Positions 147 through 63,139 of a DNA stretch of 64,000 nt are shown here, piece after piece. The position numbers and the translations under genes were made by a program. How positions within the stretch are numbered: the stretch's first letter is position 1; each line of letters begins with the position of its first letter. The DNA is taken from the NCBI GenBank assembly GCA_934154785.1, contig CAKPGL010000001.1, positions 266,814 to 330,813 of the forward strand, given 5' to 3'. The stretch comes from an uncultured Bacilli bacterium. GTDB taxonomy: Bacteria > Bacillota_I > Bacilli_A > RF39 > UBA660. The notes beneath the pieces were generated by a model that was given only the letters and a program-made list of their open reading frames with translations, did not search any database and had not been told where the DNA came from.

Positions 147-723
147 TAATAGATTTTTAGCGTATTTAATAGATATAATTATAGTTGCTTTAGTGTTTTT
201 ATGTTTAAATTCTTTTATGCCAAAAAATCATAATATTAGTGTCTTAGAAAATGAGATTACAGATTTACGTTCTAGTTATTTAAAAAAGGAGATAGATACT
301 AAAGTTTATTTTAATAGGTATGCTATTATCAGAAAAAACTTAGATCAACAATATATACCAAGTAATATTTTAAATGTAATTATAATTCTATGTTATTTTG
401 TTCTAGTTCCTTATTATTGGGATGGTAAAACAATTGGTAAAAAAATATTTAAACTTAAAATAGTTAAATCAGAACCTAATGAAAAAGTTAGTTTAAATAA
501 TTATTTAGTTCGTTCAATTATAAACAATGGTGTTTTGTGTTTTTTAATATCAATGTCTACAGTATTTTTATTTGACGATTCTAAATATCTTTTAATAACA
601 ATAATTTGTGGAATTTTACAATTTTTACTAGTAATTATTAGTAGTTTTATGATAATATATAGGCATGACAAAAAGGGAGTTCACGATTTAGTTAGTGGAA
701 CTCAAGTTATAAAAGAAGGGTAG
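130..723 (+). CDS. RDD-family integral membrane protein
   Basis: 197-aa ORF with N-terminal RFLAYLIDIIIVALVF (RDD-like) and several hydrophobic helices. ATG at 130 overlaps the dus stop. Confidence 0.45.
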   Translation: MKSKFSNRFLAYLIDIIIVALVFLCLNSFMPKNHNISVLENEITDLRSSYLKKEIDTKVYFNRYAIIRKNLDQQYIPSNILNVIIILCYFVLVPYYWDGKTIGKKIFKLKIVKSEPNEKVSLNNYLVRSIINNGVLCFLISMSTVFLFDDSKYLLITIICGILQFLLVIISSFMIIYRHDKKGVHDLVSGTQVIKEG

Positions 724-731
724 TGTATGAA

Positions 732-2201
732 ATGAGAGAACTTTCAGAACAAGAAATAGTAAGAAGAGATAAATTAGAGGAAATTAGAAAGTATACTAAT
801 CCTTATCCTGAAAAGTATGAAGTAACAAATACTTTGTTAGAAGCAAGAAGTTTAGAGGATGGTACTAAAGATGTTCGCATAGCGGGACGTATTGTATTTT
901 TAAGAAAAATGGGTAAGTTAAGTTTCTTTCGTTTACGTGATCTGGAAGCTGATATACAAGTTCAATTAAAAGCTGATGTAACTAATCCAGAGGATTATGA
1001 ATTCTTTAAAAAATTAGTTGATTTAGGTGACTTTTTAGGTGTGGATGGCGAAATCATTACAACCCAAACTGGGGAAAAGACTTTACTTGCTAGTTCCCTT
1101 AAGTTTTTAGGTAAAGCTTTAAAACCTCTTCCAGAAAAGTTTCATGGTTTAAATGATACTGAACTAAAATATCGTCAAAGATACGTAGATTTAATATCAA
1201 ACGAAGAATCTAGAAGAGTATTCTTAGGAAGAAGTAAATTATATTCTTTTATTCATAAATTTTTAGGTGAAAACGGTTTCCTACAAGTAGAAACACCAAT
1301 TATGCAAAATGCTGTTTGTGGTGCTGCAGCTAGACCATTCTACACACATCATAATGCTTTAGATATGGACTTCAATTTAAGAATTGCTCCAGAAACTTAT
1401 TTAAAACAATGTATTGCTGGTGGTTTTAATCGTGTTTATGAAGTTGCTAAATGTTTTAGAAACGAAGGAATGGATACTGAACACTTACAAGAATTTACAC
1501 AAGTAGAGTGGTATGCTTCATATTGGAATTTTGAAGATAATATTAAATTCTATCAAAGATTTATTAAATCTTTATTAATGGAATTATTAGGAACTACAAC
1601 AATTGAATATAAAGGTAATAATTTAGATTTTGGTGTTGAATCTTGGGACAAAATTAACTATGTAGAAAAAATGCGTGAAATTTTAGGCTTTGATTTCCTT
1701 GATATTGAAGATCCAACAGAATTGAAAAATAAAATAGTAGAAAAAGGACTATTTACTTTTGATGATTTAGAAGAATATAAGTCTGTTAGCCAAATTATTG
1801 ATTTTGTTTATAAGAAGACTATTAGAGAAAATATTGTTCAACCAACAATTATGTATAATTATCCAGCTTTCTTAATTCCACTTGCTCGTCGTAATGATAA
1901 CGACAGTAGAATAATAGATGTTTTCCAAGTTGTTGCGAGTGGTACAGAATTGTGTAAAGCTTATTCAGAATTAGTTAATCCAATTGAACAAAGAGCTGCT
2001 TTTGAAGACCAATTAAAAGCCAAGGCTCAAGGTGATGAAGAAACTATGGAAATTGATGAAGGATTTATGGGTGCCATGGAACAAGGTATGCCTCCAATTT
2101 CAGGATTAGGTTTCGGGATTGATAGATTACTTATGATTATTTATAATCAACCATCAATTAGGGATGTAGTATTATTCCCAATGATGAAAGATAAAGATTA
2201 G
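732..2201 (+). CDS. lysS: lysyl-tRNA synthetase (class II)
   Basis: Long ORF with class-II LysRS character. N-terminus ELSEQEIVRRDKLEEIRK...NPYP, class-II motif 1 ELLG and an FRNEG motif. Likely start ATG 732; the ORF track starts at GTG 723, which is too close to the GAAGGG RBS. Confidence 0.9.
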   Translation: MRELSEQEIVRRDKLEEIRKYTNPYPEKYEVTNTLLEARSLEDGTKDVRIAGRIVFLRKMGKLSFFRLRDLEADIQVQLKADVTNPEDYEFFKKLVDLGDFLGVDGEIITTQTGEKTLLASSLKFLGKALKPLPEKFHGLNDTELKYRQRYVDLISNEESRRVFLGRSKLYSFIHKFLGENGFLQVETPIMQNAVCGAAARPFYTHHNALDMDFNLRIAPETYLKQCIAGGFNRVYEVAKCFRNEGMDTEHLQEFTQVEWYASYWNFEDNIKFYQRFIKSLLMELLGTTTIEYKGNNLDFGVESWDKINYVEKMREILGFDFLDIEDPTELKNKIVEKGLFTFDDLEEYKSVSQIIDFVYKKTIRENIVQPTIMYNYPAFLIPLARRNDNDSRIIDVFQVVASGTELCKAYSELVNPIEQRAAFEDQLKAKAQGDEETMEIDEGFMGAMEQGMPPISGLGFGIDRLLMIIYNQPSIRDVVLFPMMKDKD

Positions 2202-2217
2202 ATAGGAGATAATAGAT

Positions 2218-3411
2218 ATGAAATTTTTATCTGTAAATGCTGGTAGTTCATCATTAAAGTTTCAAGTATATGAAATGCCAGAAGAAAAAGTATTAATTAG
2301 TGGTTATGTAGAAAAAATTGGTTTACCAGATTGCTTTTGGAATGTTAAAATCAATGGTGAAAAAATTAGAACAGAACGTTATTTAAAAGATCACTCTGAA
2401 GCAGTTCAAGTTTTAATTGATGAATTATTAAAAACCAACGTTGTTAAGAGTTTAGACGAAATTAAAGGAGTAGGACATAGAGTTGTTCATGCTGGTGAAA
2501 CATATTCTAATTCAGTAGTTATAACTGACGAAGTAATGAACGTAATTAAAGAAAATATCAAACTTGCTCCACTTCATAATCCTGGTAATATAGTTGGTAT
2601 TGAAGCTATGCAAAAAGCATTACCAGGTGTTCCAATGGTAGCGGTATTTGATACTGCTTTCCATCAAACAATGCCAAAAAAGAATTATATTTATCCTGTC
2701 CCTATGGAATGGTATACAAAATATGGAGTACGTAAATATGGTTTCCATGGTACTAGTCATAGATATATTACTGGTGCTATGCAAGAAAAATTAGGTAAAG
2801 AGAATGTAAACTTAATTATTTGCCATATTGGTAGTGGTGCTAGTATTTCCGCTATTAAAGATGGTAAAAGCTATGATACTACAATGGGTTTAACAGCACT
2901 AGATGGTTTAATGATGGGAACACGTAGTGGTTCTATTGATCCTTCAATAATAGAATATGTATGTAAAGAAACTGACAAGACAGTTGGTGAAGTTACTACA
3001 GCTTTAAATAAGCAAAGTGGTTTCTTAGGTATAGCTGGTGTATCTGATTGCCGTGATGTTGAAAGTCTTGCTAAAGAAGGAAATGAAAATGCTTTATTAG
3101 CTCTTGAAATGTATTCTGATAGAATAGCAAAATATATTGCTGATTACTATCTTGAATTAGATGGCAATGTAGACGCTATCGTATTTACAGCAGGTGTTGG
3201 TGAAAATGGTTTTGCTATGCGTAGTGCCATTGTTAAAAAATTAAATTGCATTGGTATTTGCTTAGACGAAGATTTTAATAGTAAAGTAGCAAGCTTTAAA
3301 GATATTAAAGAAGGAAAGATAAGTTCTAATGATTCAAAAGTAGATGTATATGTTGTACCTACAGATGAAGAAGTAATGATTATAAGAGATACTTATGAAT
3401 TAGTAAAATAA
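2218..3411 (+). CDS. ackA: acetate kinase
   Basis: 397 aa. MKFLSVNAGSSSLKFQVYEM N-terminus, HRVVHAG and FDTAFHQTMP motifs typical of AckA. RBS GGAGATAA upstream. Confidence 0.9.
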   Translation: MKFLSVNAGSSSLKFQVYEMPEEKVLISGYVEKIGLPDCFWNVKINGEKIRTERYLKDHSEAVQVLIDELLKTNVVKSLDEIKGVGHRVVHAGETYSNSVVITDEVMNVIKENIKLAPLHNPGNIVGIEAMQKALPGVPMVAVFDTAFHQTMPKKNYIYPVPMEWYTKYGVRKYGFHGTSHRYITGAMQEKLGKENVNLIICHIGSGASISAIKDGKSYDTTMGLTALDGLMMGTRSGSIDPSIIEYVCKETDKTVGEVTTALNKQSGFLGIAGVSDCRDVESLAKEGNENALLALEMYSDRIAKYIADYYLELDGNVDAIVFTAGVGENGFAMRSAIVKKLNCIGICLDEDFNSKVASFKDIKEGKISSNDSKVDVYVVPTDEEVMIIRDTYELVK

Positions 3412-3437
3412 TTGCGTCTTGCAATTATTTTTTTTGA
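3410..3437 (+). terminator. rho-independent terminator after ackA
   Basis: Hairpin AATTGC-gtct-TGCAATT followed by a T8 run. Confidence 0.6.
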
Positions 3438-3488
3438 GTTTTTTAAAAAATAGTGTATAATGGATTTGTATTAGATTGGCGGGATTTT

Positions 3489-4457
3489 ATGTATAGTAGC
3501 TTAATGTTTAATAAAATTTATAGAAAGATAAAAAAATATAATACTATTGTTATAGCACGTCACGTAGGTGCTGACCCTGATGCCTTAGCAAGTCAAATTG
3601 CTTTAAGGGACTCTATAAAGAAAACATTTCCTAAAAAAGATGTATATGCTATAGGATACCCGGCTTCTAAATTTAAATACTTAGGTAATTTGGATAAATT
3701 TCAAGAATCTATGTATGAAAACTCACTATTAATAGTTACTGATACACCTGATAAAAAAAGAATTGACGGTGTTGATCCTGATAGATTTGATTATTCAATA
3801 AAGATAGACCATCATCCTTTTATAGAAAAAACTTGTAAATTAGAATTAATTGATGATACTGCTAGTAGTGCTAGTCAATTAGTTATTGAATTAATATTTA
3901 AATCAGGATTAAAATTAGATAAAGATATAGCGGGTAAACTTTATATAGGTTTAGTTGCGGATACTAATAGATTCCTATTTTCGTATACGACAGATAAAAC
4001 ATTTTCATTAGTATCAAAATTAGTTAATAAGACTAATTTAAACTTTGGACCACTATATGATAATCTTTATATGCGACCTTTAAAGGAAGCAAGATTTCAA
4101 GGATATATAACAGAACATATGACTATTACAGAACATGGCTTAGGTTATATTTTATTGGATGAAAAAACATTAACTGATTTTGATGTTGATGCCGCAACGG
4201 CTGGCAATATGGTTAATAATTTTAATTATATTGATGAAATTGTTGCTTGGGTAGTTTTCTCTTATGATAAATCTAATGATACTATTCGTGGTTCTATTAG
4301 ATCTAGAGGTCCAATTATTAATGAAGTAGCGTCACATTTTAATGGTGGTGGTCATATATTTGCTAGTGGTGTTAGATTAAAAACTAATGAAGAAGTAGAT
4401 GCCCTAGTACAAGAATTAGACGAAGTATGTGATAAATATCTTGATAAAAATAAATAA
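3489..4457 (+). CDS. nrnA: DHH/DHHA1 phosphoesterase (NrnA-like bifunctional oligoribonuclease/pAp phosphatase)
   Basis: IARHVGADPDALAS, DTPD, DHH(P), GGGH motifs. Start moved to ATG 3489, because an extended -10 TGTGTATAAT (3448-3457) overlaps the ORF-track GTG start at 3453. Confidence 0.75.
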   Translation: MYSSLMFNKIYRKIKKYNTIVIARHVGADPDALASQIALRDSIKKTFPKKDVYAIGYPASKFKYLGNLDKFQESMYENSLLIVTDTPDKKRIDGVDPDRFDYSIKIDHHPFIEKTCKLELIDDTASSASQLVIELIFKSGLKLDKDIAGKLYIGLVADTNRFLFSYTTDKTFSLVSKLVNKTNLNFGPLYDNLYMRPLKEARFQGYITEHMTITEHGLGYILLDEKTLTDFDVDAATAGNMVNNFNYIDEIVAWVVFSYDKSNDTIRGSIRSRGPIINEVASHFNGGGHIFASGVRLKTNEEVDALVQELDEVCDKYLDKNK

Positions 4458-4485
4458 AAAATTTAGACAATGTTTCTAAATTTTT

Positions 4486-4872
4486 TTATATTATAGGATT
4501 TTCTACATCTGCCACTTGACCTTCATTAGTAGGGTTAAGCACGATATATAAAGTTATAATAGCGGCAATAATAGTTAAGTAAGACGCTGCTATTTGTAGT
4601 TCATAAGGCTTTAAATTTTCTCCTTGTTCTTTAGAAATTTTATATAATGCATAATTGATAATTAAAAATATAATGGCTGTTACTAAAATAAAGGTACGGT
4701 TAAAAACAGATATTTTTTGTGTCTGTTCAGCATTAAATAGTGTTTTTTCACCTTTAATCTCTAATTTTTCGTTATAAAGAAGTAATATAGAAACAATAAT
4801 TTCAATGATGCTAATAACAGATACAATTATTTGAGCATATATAGCAATAATTTCTTTTTCTTCATTACTCAT
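4486..4872 (-). CDS. hypothetical small membrane protein
   Basis: 128-aa ORF with 3-4 hydrophobic helices. Overlaps the upstream minus-strand gene by 8 nt (coupled). Confidence 0.3.
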   Translation of the reverse strand: MSNEEKEIIAIYAQIIVSVISIIEIIVSILLLYNEKLEIKGEKTLFNAEQTQKISVFNRTFILVTAIIFLIINYALYKISKEQGENLKPYELQIAASYLTIIAAIITLYIVLNPTNEGQVADVENPII

Positions 4873-6806: not shown

Positions 6807-6835
6807 TTGACTAATGAATTTTTATGATATACAAT
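6807..6835 (+). promoter_or_regulatory. sigma-A type promoter for nrdD
   Basis: TTGACT-17-TACAAT with a TG two nt upstream (extended -10-like). The ORF-track ATG at 6824 lies inside it. Confidence 0.45.
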
Positions 6836-6859: not shown

Positions 6860-9181
6860 ATGTATATGAACAAGACTGAAGAACTATTAGAAAATTTAAC
6901 TGTTGTTAAAAGAGACGGTAAAAAAGTTTCTTTTAATGGTACAAAAATTGCTGTAGCAATCAAAAAAGGCTTTGACAGCATTCCTAAAGTATATGATGAC
7001 GATGAAGAAGAAAAATCAGTATATACTGAAAAAGATATTCAAAAAGTTTATCAATCTGTAATTAATCGCATTGAAAAAGATTATAAAGATAGTGAAAAAA
7101 TTAAGATTGAAGAAATTCAAGATATTATTGAAGAGCAATTAAAAAAATTAAAATATGACGATGTATATGAATCTTTTTCAGAATATCGTGAGAGAAGAGC
7201 TCAATCTCGTGAAATGTTTATGGATGATAAAAAAAGACATAAATTTTTAAAAACCCTAGAAGGTTTAGGATTAAAATCCGCTAGTGAAGATGACACTAAA
7301 AGAGAAAATGCTAATGTAGATGGTGATACCGCAATGGGAACCATGCTACAATATGGTAGTACAGTTTCTAAAGAATTTGCTAAATCATACTTGATGAAGA
7401 AAAAATATTCTGATGCTCATGATGATGGTGATATTCATATTCATGATATGGACTTCTTACCAATGGGTACTACAACTTGTATGCAAATTGATTTGGAAAA
7501 ATTATTTAAAGGTGGTTTTTCTACGGGTCATGGACATTTAAGAGAACCAAATGATATTATGTCTTATACTGCTTTAGCAGCGATAGCTGTTCAGTCAGAT
7601 CAAAATGATCAACATGGTGGACAAAGTATTCCAGCTTTTGATTATTATATGGCACCTGGAGTTTTAAAAACATTTAAGAAGCAATTTAAACAACTAATTG
7701 CGGATTATCTAGATTATTCTGAATTTGGTAATTTTATTTGTATGAATACCATTGTTAAAGAAATAGATAAATTAGAAAGTATTGATGTTGATTTATCAAT
7801 CTTTGATAGAGTTTGTAAAGATTCAGATGAAGTAAAAAGATTATTTAAGTTAAGTTATGAAAAAGCTTTACAAAAAACAGACCGTATTACTTATCAAGCG
7901 ATGGAAGCATTTGTTCATAATTTAAATACAATGCATTCTAGAGCTGGAGCTCAAGTACCATTTTCTTCTATTAACTTTGGTACTGATACTTCTAGTGAAG
8001 GTAGAATGGTTATGAAAAACTATTTACTTGCTGTAGATGCGGGCCTTGGTCATAATGAAACACCAATATTCCCAATATCTATTTTTAAAATAAAAGAAGG
8101 GGTAAACTATAATCCAGAAGACCCTAACTATGATTTATTTAAACTTTCTTGTAAAGTATCCGCTAAAAGATTATTCCCTAATTTCTCATTCATGGATTCA
8201 CCATTTAATAAACAATATTATAAAGGTGATTACAAAACAGAAGTATGTTACATGGGATGTCGTACTAGAGTAATGGGCAATGTTGTAGATCCTGATAAAG
8301 CAGTTACTCCAGGACGTGGTAATCTATCATTTACATCTATTAACTTACCAAGACTTGGTATTAAACATGGTATAGTTCTTGGAAATAATGAAAAAACAGA
8401 TTTAAAAGGTTTCTATGCAGAACTTGATGATTTGATGGATTTAGTTAAAGATCAATTACTAGAAAGATTTGAAATTCAATGTAATAAAAGAGTTTATAAC
8501 TTCCCATTCTTATTAGGACAAGGTGTTTGGATAGACTCTGAAAAATTAAAACCAACTGATAGATTAAGAAAAGTATTAAAACATGGTACTTTATCAATTG
8601 GATTTATTGGTTTAGCAGAGTGCTTAAAAGCATTAACTGGTAAACATCATGGTGAAGACGAAAAATCTGCTAAATTAGGACTTGAAATAATTAAACATAT
8701 GCGTCAAAGATGTGATGAATATGCAGAGAAATATAATTTGAATTTTACGTTATTAGCAACACCTGCTGAAGGATTATCTGGAAGATTTGTTAATATAGAT
8801 AAAGCTGTATATGGAAAGATAAAAGGTGTTACAGATAGACCTTATTATACTAACTCATTCCATATCCCAGTTTACTTCCATATTTCTATAGCAAATAAAA
8901 TAAAATTAGAGGCACCTTATCATGAACTTACAAATGCTGGACATATTTCTTATATTGAATTAGATGGTGATCCTAGTAAGAATGTTGAAGCATTTGAAAA
9001 AATTGTTCGTATGATGAAAGAAAATAATATGGGATATGCCGCTATTAACCATCCAGTTGATAGAGACCCTGTATGTGGTTACGTAGGTGTAATTGGTGAT
9101 GTTTGTCCAGGTTGTGGCAGACGTGCTAATGAAGCTGTTAGTGTTGAAAAGTTACATAGTTTAAGTTGCGATTGTAAATAA
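6860..9181 (+). CDS. nrdD: anaerobic ribonucleoside-triphosphate reductase (class III RNR), catalytic body ending in the Zn-ribbon and lacking the glycyl-radical segment
   Basis: RBS AGGAGAGAG then ATG 6860/6866. C-terminus INHPVDRDPVCGYVGVIGDVCPGCG...SVEK aligns to the E. coli NrdD Zn-ribbon INHPVDRCHECGFTGE...CPKCG...SVTR. The ORF stops (TAA 9179-9181) exactly where RVCGYLG...FNAGK would follow. Confidence 0.9.
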   Translation: MYMNKTEELLENLTVVKRDGKKVSFNGTKIAVAIKKGFDSIPKVYDDDEEEKSVYTEKDIQKVYQSVINRIEKDYKDSEKIKIEEIQDIIEEQLKKLKYDDVYESFSEYRERRAQSREMFMDDKKRHKFLKTLEGLGLKSASEDDTKRENANVDGDTAMGTMLQYGSTVSKEFAKSYLMKKKYSDAHDDGDIHIHDMDFLPMGTTTCMQIDLEKLFKGGFSTGHGHLREPNDIMSYTALAAIAVQSDQNDQHGGQSIPAFDYYMAPGVLKTFKKQFKQLIADYLDYSEFGNFICMNTIVKEIDKLESIDVDLSIFDRVCKDSDEVKRLFKLSYEKALQKTDRITYQAMEAFVHNLNTMHSRAGAQVPFSSINFGTDTSSEGRMVMKNYLLAVDAGLGHNETPIFPISIFKIKEGVNYNPEDPNYDLFKLSCKVSAKRLFPNFSFMDSPFNKQYYKGDYKTEVCYMGCRTRVMGNVVDPDKAVTPGRGNLSFTSINLPRLGIKHGIVLGNNEKTDLKGFYAELDDLMDLVKDQLLERFEIQCNKRVYNFPFLLGQGVWIDSEKLKPTDRLRKVLKHGTLSIGFIGLAECLKALTGKHHGEDEKSAKLGLEIIKHMRQRCDEYAEKYNLNFTLLATPAEGLSGRFVNIDKAVYGKIKGVTDRPYYTNSFHIPVYFHISIANKIKLEAPYHELTNAGHISYIELDGDPSKNVEAFEKIVRMMKENNMGYAAINHPVDRDPVCGYVGVIGDVCPGCGRRANEAVSVEKLHSLSCDCK

Positions 9182-9199
9182 AGAATAGGAGATAATAAT

Positions 9200-9361
9200 A
9201 TGAAAGATGAAAAAAGTGTAAAAGAAACTTCAAAAAAAATGGTTGGTGAAGGTGTAGGTTTTGAAAGAATCAGAAGAATTACTGGTTATTTAGTAGGAAC
9301 TGTTGATAGATTTAACAATGCCAAACGTGCTGAAGTTGAAGATCGTGTAAAACATTCATAA
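9200..9361 (+). CDS. stand-alone NrdD glycyl-radical domain peptide (53 aa)
   Basis: Own RBS AGGAG (9187-9191) then ATG 9200, in a different frame from nrdD. Peptide ...GFERIRRITGYLVGTVDRFNNAKRAEVEDRVKHS matches the NrdD C-terminal radical motif R-x-C/T-G-Y-L...F-N-x-G/A-K-x-x-E-x-x-x-R-V-K-H. Confidence 0.6.
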   Translation: MKDEKSVKETSKKMVGEGVGFERIRRITGYLVGTVDRFNNAKRAEVEDRVKHS

Positions 9362-9362
9362 T

Positions 9363-9926
9363 ATGAAAATACGTTTAGCAACACCTAATATTCAAAAAGA
9401 TAGTGTTGTTGATGGTGAAGGTATCAGGGCAGTTATTTGGACGCAAGGTTGTTCTCACAACTGCCCTGGTTGTCATAATCCTGAAACACATGATTTTAAT
9501 TCAGGATATTTAGTAGATATTTGTGATGTAAAAAAACAAATTGAAGAATTGGTTGCTTCTCATAATGGAATAACATTATCTGGTGGAGACCCTTTAATGC
9601 AGGTAGATTCTTGTTTGGAATTAGCTAAATATGCTGAAAGTTTAGGGTTAAATGTTTGGTGTTATACAGGTTTTACTTTTGAAGAATTATTACTAGCGTC
9701 AAAATCAAAGCCTATTATAAAAGAATTCTTGAATACTATTGATGTATTAGTAGATGGAAGGTTTAAAATAGAAGAAAAAACCTTTGATGCTATATTTAGA
9801 GGTTCAAGAAATCAAAGAGTAATCGATACAAAAAAAAGTTTAATTAAAAATAAAGTTGTAGAAATACCTAAATATAAGGTAAATAAACCTATAAAAAAGG
9901 TACCAGAACAACATCTTTATATATAG
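9363..9926 (+). CDS. nrdG: anaerobic RNR activating protein (radical SAM)
   Basis: GCSHNCPGCHNPETH CxxxCxxC radical-SAM motif. 187 aa. ATG immediately after the stop of the small ORF. Confidence 0.85.
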   Translation: MKIRLATPNIQKDSVVDGEGIRAVIWTQGCSHNCPGCHNPETHDFNSGYLVDICDVKKQIEELVASHNGITLSGGDPLMQVDSCLELAKYAESLGLNVWCYTGFTFEELLLASKSKPIIKEFLNTIDVLVDGRFKIEEKTFDAIFRGSRNQRVIDTKKSLIKNKVVEIPKYKVNKPIKKVPEQHLYI

Positions 9927-10047: not shown

Positions 10048-13000
10048 ATGAAAAAGATAAATCGAGTATTTGTTTTGGTATTTATAATTGCGTTAGCAAT
10101 AACATTAATTTCCGTTAAAATGATAGTTTTAACAAATTCAACTAAGAATATAGAAATAGTATTAAATAATGAATATTATTCTTATTTATCAAAGGAAGCA
10201 AAAGAATACGTTGAAGAAGTGTATGAAGAAACAGGTAAAGTAATTCTTACTGAAAAAAATAAAAAAGTAAACAAACCTTATTTAAATCCTGATTATATAG
10301 AGTACTTATCTTTAACTGCTGAACAAAAAAAGAAGGAGGGGGTTATTCCATCTCCAACAATCATTGATTATTACAGTAAAGATAACGCTATTAATAATAG
10401 CTTACCAAGTAGTTATGATCTAAGAAATGTAGATGGTAAAAATTATGTTACACCAGTAAGAGATCAAGGTAAGCTAGGATTATGTTGGACTTTTGCTTCA
10501 GCTGGTGCAGCGGAGTCTTATTTATTAAAAACAAGTAATACGACATATTCTAATAGTTCTCAGTTAATATCAGAAAGACAAATCGATTACGCTACTGCAA
10601 TTGATGGCATCAAAGATTATCGGAGTGAATATGTGTCATTTATTGGGAGAAAACTGGGTGAAGGTGGAAATATTTATATTTCTACTGTTGCTATGGCAAA
10701 TGGAATATCATTAATAGATTATAAAAAATTTAAGTCATATAATGATTCAGATTTACAAAAAATGGAATTAAATGATATTTTAAGTTATAAAAATTCTTTA
10801 TATGAAGTTAATGAGACAATTAATATGCCTATTTTAAATCTTCGTGAATCTACTGATGAATTGTCACAAGAAGACGTTGAAGTAAGAAATAGTTTTATAA
10901 ATGAAATAAAAGAAAATATAACAAAATATGGTGCTGCCTATGTTAGCACATATGTAACTTCAAGTTGTGCGTATGATGATACTAATTTAAATAATATGGT
11001 TGTTGATGTATATAGCTGTAGTATTGCCGGCGGTGGACATGCGATGCAGATAATTGGTTGGAACGATAATATAGAATATAATTATTGTAATGATAATAAC
11101 GTGCATAGCAGTGATTTAACAAATTGTAGTAATATAATAAATGGTAAAGGAGTATGGATTTTAAAAAATTCCTGGGGTGATAGTGATCAATATCCATATT
11201 TAACCTATGATTCTCTTAAAAGTAGCATTTCTTTTATTAAAAATATGACTACTAACTTGGATAAATCTTGGAATAACAATTATATTTTGGGAACTGATGC
11301 ACATAGTTCAAAAAAAGAATATCAATTATCTACAACAAGAATCAAAGATAATGAAAAAATAAAAAAAATTAAATTTATTTCTATGACTGGTACTTCGACT
11401 TATAACGTTAAAATTTTAGATATAAATGGCATATATACGGAAAAGAATGTATATGCAGAAACACCGGGTTTAATAACATTAGAATTTGATTCAGATGTTG
11501 TTGTAAATAAAGATTCAAACATAATAATTAGTACATCAAATAATAATGATGGCGAATTTCTTGACAAAGTTAGTTTATTTACAAGCAATGTTGATAATAC
11601 TCCCTATATATCTTTAGAGATTTATGAAAATATAAATCTTGCATATTCACCCAATAAAGTATTGTATTTAGAAACAAAAAATGTTCCTTCGGGTTCTAAT
11701 GTAACATTTAAATTATATAATAGTGAAAATAAAGAGGTAAATTCATATATATCTTATACAAATAACGTAGTGGCAGAAAATAACATTAATTTAAGACTTA
11801 GTGCTAGTACTGAATTACCTGCAGGTGATTATCGTTTAGATGCAATATATGACTCTAATGTTATTGCTTCTGTCAATGTAGTGTCACAAAGAATGCAAGG
11901 TTCAGGAACAGAAAGTGATCCTTATATAATCAAAAGTTCTGAAGATTTAAACCAAATAAGATACGATTTAGATGCTTATTATATCTTAGATAATGATATT
12001 GATCTAACAGAAGATACTAGCGAAGGTGGTAAATTATCACTTAAATCAGAAATCTGCCCACAAGGCTTCGGGTGGGAATCAATAAATGACTTTAATGGGA
12101 CACTAGATGGAAAAGGCCATGCAATTAAAGGATTGCATCAAAATAACTTTATATCTTGTAGTATAAATCAAGAAAAATGGAATGCATGGAATAATGCAGG
12201 CAATGGTTTATTTGGTTCTGCGTATGGCAATGTTGTTATTAAAAATCTAATATTAGAAGATTTTGATGTAAATTGTCAAGGAAGTTATTGTAGTGCATTA
12301 TTAACCGAATATAAAGCTGATAATGGGGATCAAAATAATACTAATGAATATAATGCTATATTTAAAAACATTGCTTTAAAGAATAGCAAAGTAAGTGGCA
12401 CATACAATAATAGAAATCCGATTAGTAGTTTGCAAAATTCATACGGTGGTGGTTTATTTGGGTATTTTGAATCCGTTTATGGTAATATCTCAATCTCTAA
12501 TATATATTTAGATTTTAAACTTGATAACAAAGATTTAAAAAATACAGCATATTTAATTAGCACCATTCAGGGAAATAATGTTGATATTAATAATATTTCA
12601 ATAAAAGGAAATATTAATGGCAAATATGCAGATGGAGACAACGACGCAGTATTAATTTATCGAATAGTTGATCAAATACTTATAAATGGCACATTTTTTA
12701 CAAAAAATATTTTATCGACAGTAACAGGTAAGAACGTATCGGGACTCTTATATAAGCATGGTACTGATGGTACTATAGCCAAAGTCAATTTATTAAACAT
12801 AAAAGACACACCTCTTTGCCAATATAAGTGTTCTAATGTAACAGGTATAAATATTTATGATAAAGATACAGAGTTAACAGAGTTAATAAGAAGAGAAAAC
12901 TATGAAACTTGGGAAAATTTTGATGAAAATTGGGTTATGAAGACAATCGATGGAATACCTAGAATACCAGTCCTAAAGTTTGTTGATTTTGAATATACAA

Positions 13001-15039
13001 AATTTGATGATATTGTGATAAATCAAGAGTTAAATAAAAAATATAATATTTATGATTACTTATATCCTAAGAATGATTCTGCTAAAAGAATAACTTTTAA
13101 ATCAAATGATGAAAGCATCGTTAAGATAAATGAAGACGGGACTATTATTCCACAATCTACAGGTAGAACAACTATTCATGTGGAAAGTTATTATGACGGA
13201 TATATAAATGATGTTCCTATTACGATTAATTATGTACCGCATTATACAGTTAAATTTGACGCCAACGGTGGAGTAGGAACAATGGAATCTATTGAAGTTG
13301 ATACTACCAATAATTATGCGTTACCAACAAATGTTTTTACGAAAGAAAATTATGAGTTTAAGGAATGGAATACAAATGCTGACGGAACAGGGATCTCCTA
13401 TAATAATCTAGCTTTGTTACCTGCAATGGAGGATAAAACCGTAGTTACCTTGTATGTACAATGGATAGGTGAAGAAAAAATAGTTACGTTTGATGCCAAT
13501 GGTGGAACAGTAAATCCTGATAAAAAAATTGTTCGTTATGGGGATACCTATGGAGATTTACCAATACCTATCAAACCTGGTAACGGCTTTAATGGCTGGA
13601 GAGCAGGTTCCGTTTCAGTAAATTCTAATTCAAGCTTATATGGTTACAACTTAATAGCAAGTTGGAGAGAGAATGCTTATACAATCATATACGATGCTAA
13701 TGGTGGAACAGTAAATACAGATGATGAAAATTTAAAATATTTAAGGCTTATGTCTAATTCTACCGCAACTACTATTGCCTTTAATGGAAAAGAAAAAGAA
13801 CTTGCTAAGAATTTTTATAAAAAATCAGGTTATGCGTTTAAAGAATGGAATACTAGTGCTGATGGAACAGGTACGTCTTACAAAGATACTGATAAGATAA
13901 ATTTTGATAATGTGGAAAATTCAACATTTAGATTATATGCACAGTGGGAATTAGAAAGTTATTATGTAACTTTTAATCCTAATGGTGGAATAGGAACTAT
14001 GGATAACCAATCTTTTGTTCCAAATGTGGAACAAAATTTAGTATTTAATAAATTCACAAAGGATGGTTATATATTTAAAAGTTGGAATACGAATGCTGAT
14101 GGAACCGGTGCATCTTATAAAGATGGCGAGACTATAAAAATTACAAATAATTTAACTTTATATGCGATTTGGAGTCCAATAGAATATGGTGTAACTTATG
14201 AAGCGAATAACGGTACAGGTAATGAATTAATACAAAATACACACTATGGTGATGATATTTTACTAAATTACAATACGTTTACAAAAATAGGTTATACATT
14301 TAAGGAATGGAATACAAATGCTGACGGAACAGGTATTTCATATAAAGAGGGACAATCTATAAATATTAAAGAAAATATAGTATTATACGCTATCTGGAGT
14401 CCGATAAAATATAGTATCACTTATAAAGCAAACAATGGTACAAGTGATTTTGTTAGTACTCAGGAGGCATACTATGGTGAGAGTATTATTTTATATAATA
14501 ATGTATTCTCTAAGGATGGTTATATGTTTGCAGAATGGAATACAAATATTGACGGAACAGGTACTTCATATAAAGAAGGACAATATATGAATATTACAGA
14601 AAATTTAGTATTATATGCTGTATGGAAAGAAACATATTCTTATGTAATTGATCTATACGATTATGATGATAATGAAAATTTTATAGAAATTCCTATTAAC
14701 ATTACACAAGATATTTTAAGAAGTCATATTAAATTAAATAGTAATTATAGAATAGAAATAATGACATCTTATAGTATGTTACATACTGGTAGTAAAGTAA
14801 GAATATATAACAATAACCGTTTAATAAAGGAATATACTAATGTTGTAAGGGGGGATGTAAATGGAGATGGTAAAATATCTTCAGCAGATTATGTTAAAAT
14901 AAGAAAATATATTATGGGTACAGGAATTATAAATGATAAATACTTGTTTAAGTCTGCTGATGTTAATAATGATAAAAAAATATCTTCGGCAGATTATGTT
15001 AAAATAAGAAAATATATTATGAATGGAGAAGGTTTATGA
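10048..15039 (+). CDS. very large secreted/surface modular protein: papain-like (C1) cysteine peptidase, beta-helix-like region, Ig-like (Big_2) domain, about 7 Listeria-Bacteroides (Flg_new) repeats and 2 C-terminal dockerin-like Ca-binding repeats
   Basis: N-terminal TM/signal. C1 catalytic signatures QGKLGLCWTFAS (Cys), GGGHAMQIIGWND (His), LKNSWG (Asn). GSGTESDPYIIKSSEDLNQIRYDL...DIDL beta-helix start. ITFKSNDESIVKINEDGTI Big_2-like. Repeated [FY]KEWNTNADGTG[IT]SY units. DVNGDGKISSADYVKIRKYIMG and DVNNDKKISSADYVKIRKYIM dockerin-type repeats. Confidence 0.8.
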   Translation: MKKINRVFVLVFIIALAITLISVKMIVLTNSTKNIEIVLNNEYYSYLSKEAKEYVEEVYEETGKVILTEKNKKVNKPYLNPDYIEYLSLTAEQKKKEGVIPSPTIIDYYSKDNAINNSLPSSYDLRNVDGKNYVTPVRDQGKLGLCWTFASAGAAESYLLKTSNTTYSNSSQLISERQIDYATAIDGIKDYRSEYVSFIGRKLGEGGNIYISTVAMANGISLIDYKKFKSYNDSDLQKMELNDILSYKNSLYEVNETINMPILNLRESTDELSQEDVEVRNSFINEIKENITKYGAAYVSTYVTSSCAYDDTNLNNMVVDVYSCSIAGGGHAMQIIGWNDNIEYNYCNDNNVHSSDLTNCSNIINGKGVWILKNSWGDSDQYPYLTYDSLKSSISFIKNMTTNLDKSWNNNYILGTDAHSSKKEYQLSTTRIKDNEKIKKIKFISMTGTSTYNVKILDINGIYTEKNVYAETPGLITLEFDSDVVVNKDSNIIISTSNNNDGEFLDKVSLFTSNVDNTPYISLEIYENINLAYSPNKVLYLETKNVPSGSNVTFKLYNSENKEVNSYISYTNNVVAENNINLRLSASTELPAGDYRLDAIYDSNVIASVNVVSQRMQGSGTESDPYIIKSSEDLNQIRYDLDAYYILDNDIDLTEDTSEGGKLSLKSEICPQGFGWESINDFNGTLDGKGHAIKGLHQNNFISCSINQEKWNAWNNAGNGLFGSAYGNVVIKNLILEDFDVNCQGSYCSALLTEYKADNGDQNNTNEYNAIFKNIALKNSKVSGTYNNRNPISSLQNSYGGGLFGYFESVYGNISISNIYLDFKLDNKDLKNTAYLISTIQGNNVDINNISIKGNINGKYADGDNDAVLIYRIVDQILINGTFFTKNILSTVTGKNVSGLLYKHGTDGTIAKVNLLNIKDTPLCQYKCSNVTGINIYDKDTELTELIRRENYETWENFDENWVMKTIDGIPRIPVLKFVDFEYTKFDDIVINQELNKKYNIYDYLYPKNDSAKRITFKSNDESIVKINEDGTIIPQSTGRTTIHVESYYDGYINDVPITINYVPHYTVKFDANGGVGTMESIEVDTTNNYALPTNVFTKENYEFKEWNTNADGTGISYNNLALLPAMEDKTVVTLYVQWIGEEKIVTFDANGGTVNPDKKIVRYGDTYGDLPIPIKPGNGFNGWRAGSVSVNSNSSLYGYNLIASWRENAYTIIYDANGGTVNTDDENLKYLRLMSNSTATTIAFNGKEKELAKNFYKKSGYAFKEWNTSADGTGTSYKDTDKINFDNVENSTFRLYAQWELESYYVTFNPNGGIGTMDNQSFVPNVEQNLVFNKFTKDGYIFKSWNTNADGTGASYKDGETIKITNNLTLYAIWSPIEYGVTYEANNGTGNELIQNTHYGDDILLNYNTFTKIGYTFKEWNTNADGTGISYKEGQSINIKENIVLYAIWSPIKYSITYKANNGTSDFVSTQEAYYGESIILYNNVFSKDGYMFAEWNTNIDGTGTSYKEGQYMNITENLVLYAVWKETYSYVIDLYDYDDNENFIEIPINITQDILRSHIKLNSNYRIEIMTSYSMLHTGSKVRIYNNNRLIKEYTNVVRGDVNGDGKISSADYVKIRKYIMGTGIINDKYLFKSADVNNDKKISSADYVKIRKYIMNGEGL

Positions 15040-35689: not shown

Positions 35690-36853
35690 ATGTTTAAAAG
35701 AAAAGCTAATTCGGCTAAATTAGATACTGGCAACTTAAATGAAGTAATTACATTATCGAAAGCCATTTTAAAAATACTTTTTGTAGTTATGATTATTGCG
35801 GGAGTCTATGGTTTAACAATTTTATTAAAAGAGTTAGGAATAACTAAATTCTTTGTAGAATTACTAAAGATAATTTCACCTTTATTTATAGGTATTGTAA
35901 TAGCGTGGTTATTTAATCCTCTTATGAAGTTCTTTTCTAAAAAGGGAATTCGTAGAGGACTTGGTGCTGCTATAATATATATTGCTTTAAGTGCTATAAT
36001 TTTTCTTTTAATAAAAGCTATAATTCCACTTATGTTTGAACAAATTAATGATTTAGTAAGTACTATACCATCAACATTAAAGGGAATTGTTAATTGGATT
36101 AGTGACTTATTTAATAAAGTTAGTAATAATTCTAATGTTGATTTAACTAGCGTTAAAACAGAAATTATTTCTAAAATAGAAAACTATGGTATGAATATTG
36201 CTAGTTCTCTTCCAGAAGTTATGGTTAATACAGTAAAATCATTCTTTTCTGGTATTGGTACATTTTTAATAGGAGCAATTATTGGTTTTTTCTTACTTAT
36301 TAGTTTTGATGGAACTGATAAAGTAATGGATTTTTTACCAGATAAAATACATAATAATGTAACATCTTTATTTAGTAAAATAGAAGACTCTTTAAGAAGA
36401 TATGTCCAGGGAACTTTAACACTATCTACTTTAGTATTTGTTGTAAGTACAATAGGATTTATGATAAGTGGTTTAAAATCTGCTTTATTATTTGGATTAT
36501 TTTGTGGCATCACCAATATTATTCCTTATGTTGGTCCTTACTTAGGAGCGGCACCAGCATTAATAGTTGGTTTTTCCCAAGGAACACCAATAGGTATTGG
36601 GGTCCTAATAACAGTAGTTATAGTTCAAACTATTGAAGGTAATATATTAAATCCAATTGTAATGAGTAAAACTATGAAACTACATCCTGTTACAATTATA
36701 ATAGGATTATTAGTATTTGAACATTTCTGGGGTATTCTAGGAATGATTCTTGCAACACCGATAATTGCGACAATTAAAGTTATTTTTGAATACTTTAATG
36801 AAAAATATGGTATAATAAATAAGAAATTTGAACAAAACGTTGAAGAAGAATAG
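35690..36853 (+). CDS. AI-2E family transporter (UPF0118/PerM-like)
   Basis: 387 aa, about 8 TM helices. PALIVGFSQG...ILNPIVMSKTMKLHPV pattern typical of the AI-2E family. Confidence 0.65.
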   Translation: MFKRKANSAKLDTGNLNEVITLSKAILKILFVVMIIAGVYGLTILLKELGITKFFVELLKIISPLFIGIVIAWLFNPLMKFFSKKGIRRGLGAAIIYIALSAIIFLLIKAIIPLMFEQINDLVSTIPSTLKGIVNWISDLFNKVSNNSNVDLTSVKTEIISKIENYGMNIASSLPEVMVNTVKSFFSGIGTFLIGAIIGFFLLISFDGTDKVMDFLPDKIHNNVTSLFSKIEDSLRRYVQGTLTLSTLVFVVSTIGFMISGLKSALLFGLFCGITNIIPYVGPYLGAAPALIVGFSQGTPIGIGVLITVVIVQTIEGNILNPIVMSKTMKLHPVTIIIGLLVFEHFWGILGMILATPIIATIKVIFEYFNEKYGIINKKFEQNVEEE

Positions 36854-36867
36854 TACATAATTATTAA

Positions 36868-37030
36868 TTGATAGAGAGCTTATGGTTGATGGAAATAAGT
36901 AATTAATATTATGGAAGCTACTTTAGAGTGTAGTTAAATACTACCGGTGTAAACCGTTATAATAATTAAGTTTAATTAGGATGGTACCGCGGCTTTTTCG
37001 TTCCTAGAAATAGTGGCGGTTTTTCTTATT
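36868..37030 (+). promoter_or_regulatory. T-box riboswitch leader, probable Ala (GCU) specifier
   Basis: AGAGAG box (36873-78). Specifier-loop context GAAGCUACUUUAGAG (GCU at 36917-19) is parallel to the thrS leader UUACUACUUAAGAG. Conserved T-box AAUUAGGAUGGUACCGCGG (36974-36992). Downstream U-rich terminator-like segment GGCGGTTTTTCTT. Confidence 0.75.
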
Positions 37031-58660: not shown

Positions 58661-59002
58661 GGGGCTGTTCAGGTTTCGACAGATATAGATGACTATGAAT
58701 TGCAAGTCGAAGGTACGCGTTAAGTACAAAAAATAATAACTGGAAACAGAAATCAATTAGCTTTCGCTTAATAGAAATTTAGAAGGCGCTTCTTATTATC
58801 ATTTTCTACGGGGTATTAAGAGGCTCGATTTAGTAGAATATATTTATACTAATGCTTATAGGTATAAATGAATAACATAAGCTAACTAATTTATTGGTTG
58901 TTGATTACTTTATAAATTAGAACATTTATTAATCAACTAAACTTGTAGATATTTATAGAAAGATATATTTGGACAGGAGTTCAATTCTCCTCAGCTCCAC
59001 CA
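58661..59002 (+). ncRNA. ssrA: tmRNA (SsrA)
   Basis: 5' end GGGGCTGTTCAGGTTTCGACAG. 3' tRNA-like end GGACAGGAGTTCAATTCTCCTCAGCTCCACCA. Internal tag reading frame ...ACU GGA AAC AGA AAU CAA UUA GCU UUC GCU UAA UAG gives a tag ending ...NRNQLAFA with a double stop. Confidence 0.9.
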
Positions 59003-63086: not shown

Positions 63087-63139
63087 ATTAAACGTGATAA
63101 AATAAAAAACGAAAGCGAAGATTAAGACAAGATTATATA

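What the first reader, a model, noticed from the sequence alone, without database searches (positions are those of the whole stretch)
9050..9362. Class III ribonucleotide reductase with its glycyl-radical domain split off as a separate 53-aa gene
The main nrdD ORF ends (TAA 9179-9181) right after the Zn-ribbon (…CPGCGRRANEAVSVEK LHSLSCDCK*). That is the position where E. coli, T4 and Lactococcus NrdD continue with …RRVCGYLG…FNAGKQEEVKRRVKH. Nineteen nt later, after a good AGGAG RBS, a separate ORF in another frame (9200-9361) encodes MKDEKSVKETSKKMVGEGVGFERIRRITGYLVGTVDRFNNAKRAEVEDRVKHS, which is the radical-glycine loop plus the conserved FNxxK…E…RVKH tail. nrdG starts 1 nt after it. The roughly 35 extra residues (9 on the NrdD end, about 25 on the peptide N-terminus) and the dedicated RBS argue against a simple sequencing frameshift. 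This would be a two-piece class III RNR in which the radical-harbouring domain is a detachable and potentially replaceable subunit, analogous to the PFL spare part GrcA/YfiD, which I have not seen described for NrdD. The first CxxC of the Zn site is degenerate (DPVC). A terminal CDC in the main ORF may compensate.
Basis: partly seen in the sequence, partly recalled or inferred. Interest (0 to 1): 0.8.

Follow-up and report, generated by a model that had tools for sequence, protein, structure and literature searches.

The report
Two-piece anaerobic ribonucleotide reductase operon
In this gut bacterium, and in a large group of relatives, the short protein loop that carries the free radical of the oxygen-sensitive DNA-precursor enzyme (class III ribonucleotide reductase) is made from its own 53-codon gene instead of being the tail of the main enzyme, an arrangement I could not find described for this enzyme.

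Summary
nrdD (6866-9181, 771 aa) stops right after its Zn ribbon. After 18 nt and an AGGAG, a 53-aa ORF (9200-9361) encodes exactly the missing radical-glycine loop and C-terminal tail. nrdG follows 1 nt later. Profiles split cleanly: PRK07111 positions 3-711 match the large ORF and 711-744 the small one.

One correction: the small ORF is in the same frame as nrdD, behind an in-frame TAA, not in another frame.

The exact 53-aa sequence is on 157 public contigs. In 80 species-representative genomes, 63 have a separate small ORF next to a large nrdD, 9 are fused and 8 have an orphan small gene. Frame offsets are 0, 1 and 2 (21/26/16) and gaps run from -1 to 298 nt. The small ORFs have their own SD and ATG, and dN/dS is about 0.11. 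This rules out sequencing error, frameshifting and readthrough as the general mechanism.

New here: the large subunit's 19-aa tail is a decayed copy of the glycyl-radical segment (hhalign P=1.4e-6), which implies origin by duplication. NrdD-type stand-alone radical-loop genes also occur as a ~97-aa chromosomal family and on phage contigs.

A 2026 review states that spare-part proteins are known only for formate lyases. I rate this a new variant of a known kind. Function in trans is inferred, not shown.

The parts
6807..6835 (+). Promoter-like site TTGACT-17 nt-TACAAT upstream of nrdD
   Evidence: Consensus scan, 10 of 12 matches. This is a pattern match only. It lies inside the mechanically longest ORF (start 6824), which supports ATG 6866 as the real start.
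6866..9181 (+). nrdD large subunit, 771 aa. Contains an ATP-cone (aa 12-112), NxN flap RENANV (aa 146-151), beta-A Cys in TTTCMQ (aa 202-207), finger loop YMGCRTRV (aa 462-469, single-Cys formate type), and Zn ribbon DRDPVC...CPGCGR (aa 732-752). It has no radical glycine.
   Evidence: PF13597 630.6 bits covering profile 1-532 of 562; PF03477 56 bits; NCBIfam PRK07111 1023.8 bits (cut-off 764) covering 3-711 of 746. 8p23 alignment 12-753 to 8-705. Motif coordinates. Identical 771-aa gene call on 19 contigs. AF2 model mean pLDDT 87.
9122..9178 (+). Relic tail of the large subunit (RANEAVSVEKLHSLSCDCK): a decayed, truncated copy of the glycyl-radical segment. The first Cys of CDC sits at the position of the radical Gly.
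   Evidence: hhalign of 63 large-subunit tails against the small-ORF cores: probability 90.5%, P=1.4e-6, 40 gap-free columns. None of 200 column shuffles reached the score (maximum 11.6 against 28.9). dN/dS 0.69 against 0.15 for the Zn ribbon. AF2 pLDDT falls from 80 to 44 over aa 751-771.
9179..9181 (+). TAA stop of the large subunit, in frame with the small ORF
   Evidence: TAA is the large-subunit stop in 47 of 63 split loci.
9187..9191 (+). Shine-Dalgarno AGGAG, 8 nt before the ATG of the small ORF
   Evidence: In relatives, 50 of 72 small ORFs have at least 5 nt of AGGAGG at this position.
9200..9361 (+). Small subunit, 53 aa. It has a Lys/Glu-rich variable leader (aa 1-15) and a conserved core, VGEGVGFERIRRITG29YLVGTVDRFNNAKRAEVEDRVKH. 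The radical glycine is Gly29 (codon GGT, 9284-9286).
   Evidence: PF13597 profile 533-562 (32.1 bits, above the 26.2 cut-off) and PRK07111 711-744. Aligns to 8p23 residues 707-738. The best 120 database hits are all 49-85-aa proteins. The exact sequence is on 157 contigs. dN/dS 0.11.
9363..9926 (+). nrdG, the radical-SAM activase (187 aa)
   Evidence: TIGR02491 150.1 bits (cut-off 126.1); PF13353 131.9 bits. nrdG lies directly downstream of the small ORF in most loci (an nrdG match in 61 of the 81 sequences examined, some of which are cut by contig ends).
9928..9966 (+). A/U-rich hairpin with a U run after nrdG; a possible terminator of the three-gene operon
   Evidence: RNA fold gives a 15-bp stem at -13.6 kcal/mol. 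The consensus terminator scan did not call it because it lacks G-C pairs. No terminator-like site was found between nrdD and the small ORF.

Best explanation
The window carries a three-gene operon, nrdD-large / nrdD-small / nrdG. It encodes a class III (formate-type) anaerobic ribonucleotide reductase whose glycyl-radical loop is a separate 53-aa subunit.

Shown by sequence:
- The 771-aa protein has the ATP-cone, catalytic barrel, finger-loop Cys and Zn ribbon, but no radical glycine.
- The 53-aa ORF has its own SD and ATG. It encodes precisely the missing segment: the RRITGY loop with Gly29 plus the FNxxK...RVKH tail.
- The arrangement is conserved under purifying selection across a broad, diverse clade.

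Inferred mechanism:
- The small protein is translated independently.
- NrdG with S-adenosylmethionine abstracts the pro-S hydrogen of Gly29.
- The activated peptide inserts non-covalently into the barrel of the large subunit, next to the finger-loop Cys (C465 in YMGCRTRV). There it generates the thiyl radical that starts nucleotide reduction, as the covalently attached C-terminal segment does in fused NrdDs.
- O2 cleaves glycyl-radical proteins at the radical glycine. Damage would therefore cost only a 53-aa consumable peptide, while the 771-aa body is reused.
- A free peptide also removes the need for the radical domain to flip out of the barrel for activation.

Origin (inferred from homology): the radical-segment coding region was duplicated or acquired as a second copy. 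The resident copy then decayed into the 19-aa relic tail that still ends the large subunit.
For: Complementary profile coverage: large ORF 3-711 and small ORF 711-744 of PRK07111; 1-532 and 533-562 of PF13597. The same boundary is seen against the solved P. copri NrdD.

Not an error: the identical peptide is on 157 contigs and the identical large protein on 19. The same three genes occur in independent human-gut assemblies.

Conservation:
- All 120 best hits to the peptide are 49-85-aa proteins.
- Of 80 species-representative loci, 63 are split with an adjacent large nrdD, 9 are fused and 8 are orphans.
- Among the best 150 50%-identity cluster representatives of the large protein, 59 end without a radical glycine, 44 are fused and 47 are unclear.

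Independent translation: frames 0/1/2 = 21/26/16; gaps of -1 to 298 nt; several in-frame cases contain 2-4 stops. Starts are almost all ATG (69 of 72), and 50 of 72 have an SD of at least 5 nt.

Selection: dN/dS is 0.11 for the small-ORF core. Catalytic motifs are intact in the large ORF. An nrdG match is present in 61 of the 81 sequences examined, directly downstream of the small ORF in most.

Relic tail homologous to the radical segment.

Precedent that a radical domain can work in trans: YfiD/GrcA and T4 Y06I rescue PFL after activation by PFL-AE (PMC8683613). The radical domain must leave the core for activation by NrdG (PMC12662201).
Against: There are no expression, EPR or activity data.

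Only 64 kb of this genome is available, so a second, intact nrdD elsewhere cannot be excluded.

In this window the two ORFs are in frame behind a single TAA, so a low level of readthrough product cannot be ruled out for this particular organism.

In a rough NJ tree, the fused Ruminococcus forms nest inside the split clade. The direction and number of split and fusion events are therefore unresolved.
Confidence: 0.8

Rival explanations
1. The split is a sequencing or assembly error, or a recent pseudogenising nonsense mutation in a normal fused nrdD.
For: In this window the two ORFs are in frame and separated by one TAA. On its own that looks like a simple nonsense mutation.
Against: The identical 53-aa and 771-aa products occur on 157 and 19 independently assembled contigs. 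There are about 36 extra residues between the Zn ribbon and the radical loop that fused relatives lack. The SD and ATG are conserved. The arrangement is conserved in 63 species-level loci with dN/dS 0.11.
Confidence: 0.01
2. Translational recoding (stop-codon readthrough here, frameshifting elsewhere) joins the two ORFs into one conventional NrdD polypeptide.
For: The in-frame arrangement with a single stop is seen in the window and in 13 other loci.
Against: Across split loci the small ORF is in frame 0, 1 or 2 in near-equal numbers. Gaps reach 298 nt, and some in-frame spacers hold 2-4 stops. Almost every small ORF has its own ATG and SD. The leader sequence is poorly conserved in sequence and length. 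No known recoding signal was found by Rfam in the window. The TAA is followed by A.
Confidence: 0.05
3. The small gene is a true spare part (GrcA-like) for another, intact NrdD encoded elsewhere. The truncated large ORF would then be inactive, or would be activated in some other way.
For: Stand-alone NrdD-type radical-loop genes do exist away from nrdD: 8 of 80 genome loci, a 97-99-aa family next to metK, and 78 of 80 viral-contig loci. Only 64 kb of this genome can be seen.
Against: The small gene sits between nrdD-large and nrdG in 63 species-level loci. The large ORF keeps all catalytic motifs and is as conserved as fused NrdDs. A truncated, useless 771-aa protein, often still carrying inteins that must splice, would not be maintained across such divergence.
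Confidence: 0.08
4. The two products are joined after translation, by split-intein-like trans-splicing or ligation.
For: Inteins are common in this NrdD clade.
Against: The large-subunit tail (19 aa) and the peptide leader (about 15-20 aa, Lys/Glu-rich, variable) are far too short and too variable to be split-intein halves. No Hint or intein profile hits either of them.
Confidence: 0.01

Closest known systems
Canonical class III ribonucleotide reductase NrdD/NrdG (E. coli, phage T4, L. lactis; nearest solved structure Prevotella copri NrdD, PDB 8p23)
   Same: The same family by curated profiles: ATP-cone, NxN flap, beta-A Cys, MGCR finger loop, Zn ribbon, RRITGY radical loop, FNxxK...RVKH tail and an adjacent NrdG activase.
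   Different: The polypeptide is cut between the Zn ribbon and the radical loop (between 8p23 residues 705 and 707). The radical glycine is on a separate 53-aa gene product. The large chain ends in a decayed copy of the radical segment.
GrcA/YfiD of E. coli and Y06I of phage T4: autonomous glycyl radical cofactors, the 'spare parts' of pyruvate formate-lyase
   Same: A small stand-alone protein made of a variable or disordered N-terminal part plus a glycyl-radical segment. It is presumably activated by the cognate activase and works in trans with a large catalytic body. Phage-borne versions exist.
   Different: GrcA is homologous to the PFL radical domain (PF01228), whereas this peptide matches only NrdD (PF13597). 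GrcA replaces a domain that the enzyme normally has and loses to O2. Here the large subunit has no functional radical glycine, so the peptide is obligatory. The gene is inside the nrdD-nrdG operon. The 2026 review states that only formate lyases have known spare parts.
Naturally split RNRs of other classes: Pseudomonas aeruginosa class II NrdJa/NrdJb (Crona et al. 2015, cited in PMC9669993) and phage Aeh1 class Ia NrdA-a/NrdA-b (own knowledge: Friedrich et al. 2007)
   Same: One RNR catalytic polypeptide is encoded as two adjacent ORFs that must associate.
   Different: Those splits are in classes I and II and do not separate the radical-harbouring element. The Aeh1 split was caused by insertion of a homing endonuclease gene. 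Here there is no inserted gene and there is evidence of a duplicated segment.

Membership tests
Class III RNR catalytic subunit NrdD | Match to curated NrdD models above the cut-off | tested here: met
   PRK07111 1023.8 bits (cut-off 764); TIGR02487 582.4 bits (cut-off 326); PF13597 630.6 bits.
Class III RNR catalytic subunit NrdD | Finger-loop cysteine (thiyl radical site) and beta-A cysteine | tested here: met
   YMGCRTRV at aa 462-469 and TTTCMQ at aa 202-207, aligned to the same motifs of 8p23. The MGCR single-Cys motif marks the formate-dependent type according to PMC9669993.
Class III RNR catalytic subunit NrdD | Radical glycine (RxxGY) at the C-terminus of the same polypeptide | tested here: not met
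   The large ORF ends at ...EKLHSLSCDCK without a G-Y motif. The motif RRITG29Y is on the separate 53-aa ORF.
Class III RNR catalytic subunit NrdD | Four-Cys Zn ribbon before the radical loop | tested here: inconclusive
   The ribbon has only three Cys (DPVC...CPGC), with Asp in place of the first Cys. The whole clade shares this, fused members included. Metal binding cannot be tested here.
Class III RNR activase NrdG | Radical-SAM activase gene adjacent, above the curated cut-off | tested here: met
   TIGR02491 150.1 bits (cut-off 126.1) at 9363-9926.
GrcA/YfiD autonomous glycyl radical cofactor (spare part) | Small stand-alone protein that carries a glycyl-radical segment | tested here: met
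   A 53-aa ORF with its own SD and ATG.
GrcA/YfiD autonomous glycyl radical cofactor (spare part) | Homology to the PFL-type radical domain (PF01228 / GrcA models) | tested here: not met
   Only PF13597 and NrdD NCBIfam models match the peptide. There is no PF01228 or GrcA hit.
GrcA/YfiD autonomous glycyl radical cofactor (spare part) | The partner enzyme has its own radical domain, which the small protein replaces after O2 cleavage | tested here: not met
   The partner large subunit has only a decayed relic without the glycine.
GrcA/YfiD autonomous glycyl radical cofactor (spare part) | Radical installation by the activase and restoration of activity in trans | not testable with these tools
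   This needs anaerobic biochemistry and EPR.
Split (genes-in-pieces) RNR | Adjacent ORFs that together cover one RNR catalytic chain, conserved in relatives | tested here: met
   Complementary profile coverage. 63 of 80 species-level loci are split.

The most novel reading that the evidence does not exclude
The NrdD radical loop is a free-standing, exchangeable and mobile 'consumable cofactor protein'. A large clade of gut anaerobes has become dependent on a trans-acting radical peptide after the resident copy decayed. Related stand-alone peptides would serve as spare or booster radical carriers that plug into host NrdD bodies. These are the 97-99-aa chromosomal family next to metK and the small genes on many phage contigs. 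Phages would then be supplying a 50-aa auxiliary gene to restore or raise host dNTP synthesis under oxygen stress or during infection.
Probability: 0.35. Interest if true: 0.9.

Novelty: new variant of a known kind. Interest (0 to 1): 0.78.

Why it matters
Glycyl radical enzymes are described as single chains whose C-terminal domain carries the radical. The only known trans-acting radical domains are the PFL spare parts YfiD and Y06I, and the field has speculated that other enzymes might have them (PMC8683613; the 2026 review PMC13450708 says none are known).

Here a natural, widespread class III RNR has the radical loop as an obligate separate subunit. This has several consequences:
- It gives a ready-made system for studying how the radical domain is presented to the activase and how it re-docks.
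- It allows the cost of O2 damage to be measured, since the loss is a 53-aa peptide rather than a 771-aa enzyme.
- It affects annotation. The large subunits are named as complete NrdDs. The small ORFs are named 'hypothetical protein' or given the full enzyme name, or are dropped by length filters (for example the 400-aa minimum in PMC9531940).
- It affects phylogenies and metabolic models of abundant gut Clostridia and Bacilli.
- The phage-borne copies suggest a new, very small auxiliary metabolic gene.

Tried and rejected
- Structure of the complex. Docking of the peptide was therefore not modelled.
- AF2 of the large subunit alone. The core is modelled well, but the relic tail is only a short helix of falling confidence. 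No coordinates or contacts are returned, so this says little about where the tail sits.
- AF2 of the 99-aa orphan family. Confidence was low (pLDDT 62), so I did not run a fold search on it.
- The CxC motif as a fourth Zn ligand. Rejected as a general explanation: close relatives end in ...ASLDVH or ...ASLDME without Cys, and fused relatives have the same DPVC ribbon.
- Frameshift or readthrough as a general mechanism. Rejected on frame and spacer statistics.
- Split intein. Rejected on length and the lack of Hint matches.
- Consensus terminator scan. It found nothing between the genes, and also missed the A/U-rich hairpin after nrdG.
- Literature. Six full-text searches and targeted reading found no description of a split class III RNR. 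Subscription-only papers and RNRdb could not be searched.
- NJ tree of the large subunits. It is too rough to decide between a single origin and multiple origins.
Full report
OBSERVATION

- A long ORF ends ...DRDPVCGYVGVIGDVCPGCGRRANEAVSVEKLHSLSCDCK with TAA at 9179-9181.
- AGGAG lies at 9187-9191.
- ATG 9200 opens a 53-codon ORF: MKDEKSVKETSKKMVGEGVGFERIRRITGYLVGTVDRFNNAKRAEVEDRVKHS, with its stop at 9359-9361.
- nrdG starts at ATG 9363.

Corrections to the finding:
- The gap is 18 nt, not 19.
- The small ORF is in the SAME frame as nrdD (9200-6824 = 792 codons). Only the TAA and six codons (RIGDNN) separate them.
- A promoter-like TTGACT-17-TACAAT at 6807-6835, and the gene call found in public assemblies, place the nrdD start at ATG 6866 (771 aa).

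WHAT THE TWO ORFs ARE

The two ORFs are exactly complementary on curated profiles.
- NCBIfam PRK07111 (746 positions): the large ORF matches 3-711 (1023.8 bits, cut-off 764) and the small ORF matches 711-744.
- Pfam PF13597: positions 1-532 and 533-562 respectively. The small ORF scores 32.1 bits, above the 26.2 gathering score.

The nearest solved structure is Prevotella copri NrdD (8p23). The large ORF aligns to chain residues 8-705, and the small ORF (aa 21-52) to 707-738, which puts Gly29 on the radical glycine. According to the P. copri paper, the C-terminal radical domain comprises the Zn site, the buried Gly loop and a C-terminal tail (PMC11226230). The cut here falls between the Zn ribbon, which stays on the large chain, and the Gly loop plus tail, which form the small chain.

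The large chain keeps the following:
- the ATP-cone;
- the NxN flap (RENANV);
- the beta-A Cys (TTTCMQ);
- the single-Cys finger loop YMGCRTRV, which PMC9669993 associates with formate-dependent enzymes.

nrdG scores 150.1 bits on TIGR02491 (cut-off 126.1).

NOT AN ARTEFACT, NOT A PSEUDOGENE
- The identical 53-aa sequence is recorded on 157 contigs (NCBI, ENA, Logan; the longest is 650 kb). The identical 771-aa protein is on 19 contigs.
- Six independent human-gut assemblies show the same 771/53/187-aa gene trio.
- The 120 best database hits to the peptide are all proteins of 49-85 aa with PF13597.

A scan of one genome per species (GTDB) gave at least 592 matching stretches. I classified the best 80 loci from raw DNA:
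- 63 have a large nrdD that ends after the Zn ribbon, followed by a separate small ORF;
- 9 are fused (Ruminococcus/Oscillospiraceae, 735-815 aa, with junction CPKCGRKEGSNGVGFERIRRITGYL);
- 8 have a small ORF with no nrdD or nrdG nearby.

In the 63 split loci:
- the gap between the large-ORF stop and the small-ORF start is -1 to 298 nt (median 26);
- the relative frame is 0, 1 or 2 in 21, 26 and 16 cases;
- several in-frame spacers contain 2-4 stops.

Almost all of the 72 small ORFs start with ATG (69 of 72), and 50 of 72 have at least 5 nt of AGGAGG upstream. An nrdG match is present in 61 of the 81 sequences examined, directly downstream of the small ORF in most. The core of the small ORF has dN/dS of about 0.11. 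The N-terminal leader varies in length and sequence. These facts exclude sequencing error, a recent nonsense mutation and programmed recoding as the general mechanism.

Among the 150 best 50%-identity cluster representatives of the large protein (out of 1.84 billion proteins):
- 59 end after the Zn ribbon with a short tail and no radical glycine;
- 44 are fused;
- 47 are incomplete or unclear;
- 43 of the 59 split-type proteins are longer than 830 aa; the three checked (P0124, P0129, P0137) carry inteins.

Taxa carrying the split include many Bacilli and Clostridia MAGs, Oscillospiraceae, Acutalibacteraceae (including the isolate Acutalibacter caecimuris M00118), Mogibacterium, Fibrobacter and Desulfovibrio. 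Labels such as Muribaculaceae or Rickettsiales may be binning errors.

A RELIC IN THE LARGE SUBUNIT (NEW)

After CPxCGR, the split-type large subunits continue with a conserved tail. In Clostridia-type proteins it is EGEGVSvEKLrELRKKYPNMPxFxGIE. In Bacilli-type proteins, including this window, it is EGEaVSvEKLhsLxCxCK. Some are longer, for example ...EVLKKLKGYSK...EEADK....

A profile-profile comparison of 63 tails with the small-ORF cores gives probability 90.5% and P=1.4e-6 over 40 gap-free columns. The consensus GEgVs-EkL-eL...ee-dR aligns with GEGV-FERIRRITGYLVGT-DRFNNAKRAEe-DRVKH. None of 200 column-shuffled controls came close (maximum score 11.6 against 28.9).

The tail is therefore a decayed copy of the radical segment. 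In the window, GEAVSVEKLHSLSCDCK aligns with GEGVGFERIRRITGYLV, with a Cys where the radical Gly would be. The tail evolves almost freely (dN/dS 0.69, against 0.15 for the adjacent Zn ribbon). It is modelled with falling confidence (pLDDT from 80 to 44).

I infer that a second copy of the radical segment arose by tandem duplication or acquisition, became the working one, and the resident copy decayed. In a rough NJ tree the fused Ruminococcus forms nest among split forms. The polarity and the number of events remain open.

MECHANISM (INFERRED)

The peptide is translated on its own, activated by NrdG/SAM at Gly29, and docks in the barrel next to Cys465 to start catalysis.

Two published facts make this plausible:
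- The radical domain must leave the core to be activated (PMC12662201).
- PFL activity can be restored in trans by YfiD or Y06I after activation by PFL-AE (PMC8683613).

Likely benefits are cheap replacement after O2-dependent cleavage at the radical glycine and easier access for the activase. None of this is shown here, and the complex could not be modelled.

COMPARISON WITH WHAT IS KNOWN
- By profiles this is a class III RNR. It fails one defining feature, the radical glycine on the catalytic chain.
- It works like GrcA/YfiD but is not a member of that family. There is no PF01228 homology, and the partner has no radical glycine of its own, so the peptide is obligatory rather than spare.
- Split RNRs are known in class II (P. 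aeruginosa NrdJa/b, cited in PMC9669993) and class Ia (phage Aeh1, own knowledge). None of them separates the radical carrier.
- Six full-text searches and targeted reading found no report of a split class III RNR.
- Public records name the small ORFs 'hypothetical protein' or 'anaerobic ribonucleoside-triphosphate reductase'. A large RNR phylogeny discarded sequences under 400 aa.
- NCBIfam and PHROGs have no dedicated model; only the C-terminal ends of NrdD models match.

The literature library excludes most subscription journals, and RNRdb could not be consulted, so prior description cannot be fully excluded.

RELATED OBSERVATIONS
- A conserved 97-99-aa family has a beta-alpha-beta-beta N-terminal domain joined to an NrdD-type radical segment and a Cys-rich ...EEIA end. 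It has at least 120 clusters at 90% identity, and where examined it sits just upstream of metK.
- In IMG/VR viral contigs, 78 of the best 80 hits are small orphan radical-segment ORFs without nrdD or nrdG within 4 kb. Terminase, endolysin and anti-repressor genes lie nearby.

These show that NrdD-type radical segments exist widely as independent genes, which strengthens the in-trans reading.

VERDICT

This is a new variant of a known kind: widespread, conserved and experimentally tractable. Confidence is about 0.95 in the two-gene architecture and about 0.8 in the in-trans mechanism.

Noticed in passing
L057 3848-4147; L066 2969-3268; L081-L084 6001-6300: A conserved 97-99-aa protein family in Ruminococcus/Eubacteriales MAGs. 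It has a novel N-terminal domain of about 52 aa (M.I.VTGGTL.Q.EIDAYV.QLKE.NPDKYIK...DVKY.YD.VP) fused to an NrdD-type radical segment (FERIRRITGYLVGT.DRFNNAKRAEVEDRVKH) and a Cys-rich ...C.CSLEEIA end. There are at least 120 clusters at 90% identity. It sits immediately upstream of metK and has no nrdD or nrdG nearby. It could be a GrcA-like spare part for NrdD.
   Followed up: partly
L085-L164 (IMG/VR viral contigs), e.g. L093 about 3994-4170, L107 about 3970-4130: 78 of the 80 best viral-contig hits are orphan small ORFs that encode an NrdD-type radical segment, with no nrdD or nrdG within 4 kb. Neighbouring genes include terminase large subunit, endolysin, anti-repressor and DNA ligase (PHROGs). 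This parallels T4 Y06I for PFL. PHROGs has no dedicated family for these ORFs.
   Followed up: partly
L165 (Eggerthella phage EL753P1, OP172808.1) 673-4134: A cultured phage carries an intein-containing nrdD (960 aa) that ends after the Zn ribbon without a radical glycine. It is followed by a 102-aa ORF and then a small radical-segment ORF that the record shows broken at RRI|TGY by a frameshift (3920-4048 and 4045-4134). This could be a sequencing error, a pseudogene or recoding; I did not resolve which.
   Followed up: partly
L005 3971-4132: In Candidatus Crickella equi, a 53-aa orphan radical-segment gene lies between a Crp/Fnr-like regulator and a rubrerythrin-like gene (4153-4740). That is an oxidative-stress context. 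The neighbours were read by eye and not profile-tested.
   Followed up: no
window 9167-9175 (CDC); tails listed: A CxC or CC motif recurs at the extreme C-terminus of either the large-subunit relic tail (window: SCDCK), the small subunit (for example ...FDCSCK) or the fused proteins (for example ...TCECCGAEEAV). It is common but not universal. In the relic alignment, the first Cys falls on the radical-Gly position. Its function is unexplained.
   Followed up: partly
P0123-P0270 (representatives of the large subunit): Most split-type large subunits in the 50%-identity representative set are 900-1700 aa. Insertions align at about query positions 463-466 and 638. Pfam confirms intein splicing, LAGLIDADG and Hint domains in the three that were checked.
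   Followed up: partly
window 10048-15039: A 1663-aa ORF with an N-terminal papain-family peptidase C1 segment, six Flg_new (Listeria-Bacteroides) repeats and a C-terminal dockerin. It is strain-variable: present in L167 and L169, but replaced by one or two short ORFs in L166, L168, L170 and L171.
   Followed up: partly
window 58661-59002; 36831-37008; 63109-63290: tmRNA and two T-box leaders (Rfam gathering threshold). Window GC is 27%. A YunB sporulation gene lies nearby in sister strains. The source is a low-GC, spore-forming gut Firmicute.
   Followed up: no
window 9363-9926 (NrdG aa 157-187): NrdG has a Lys-rich C-terminal extension of about 30 aa beyond the TIGR02491 profile. The Bacilli-type split loci share it (tblastn alignments reach aa 187), but the Clostridia-type and fused loci do not. 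Its significance is unknown.
   Followed up: no
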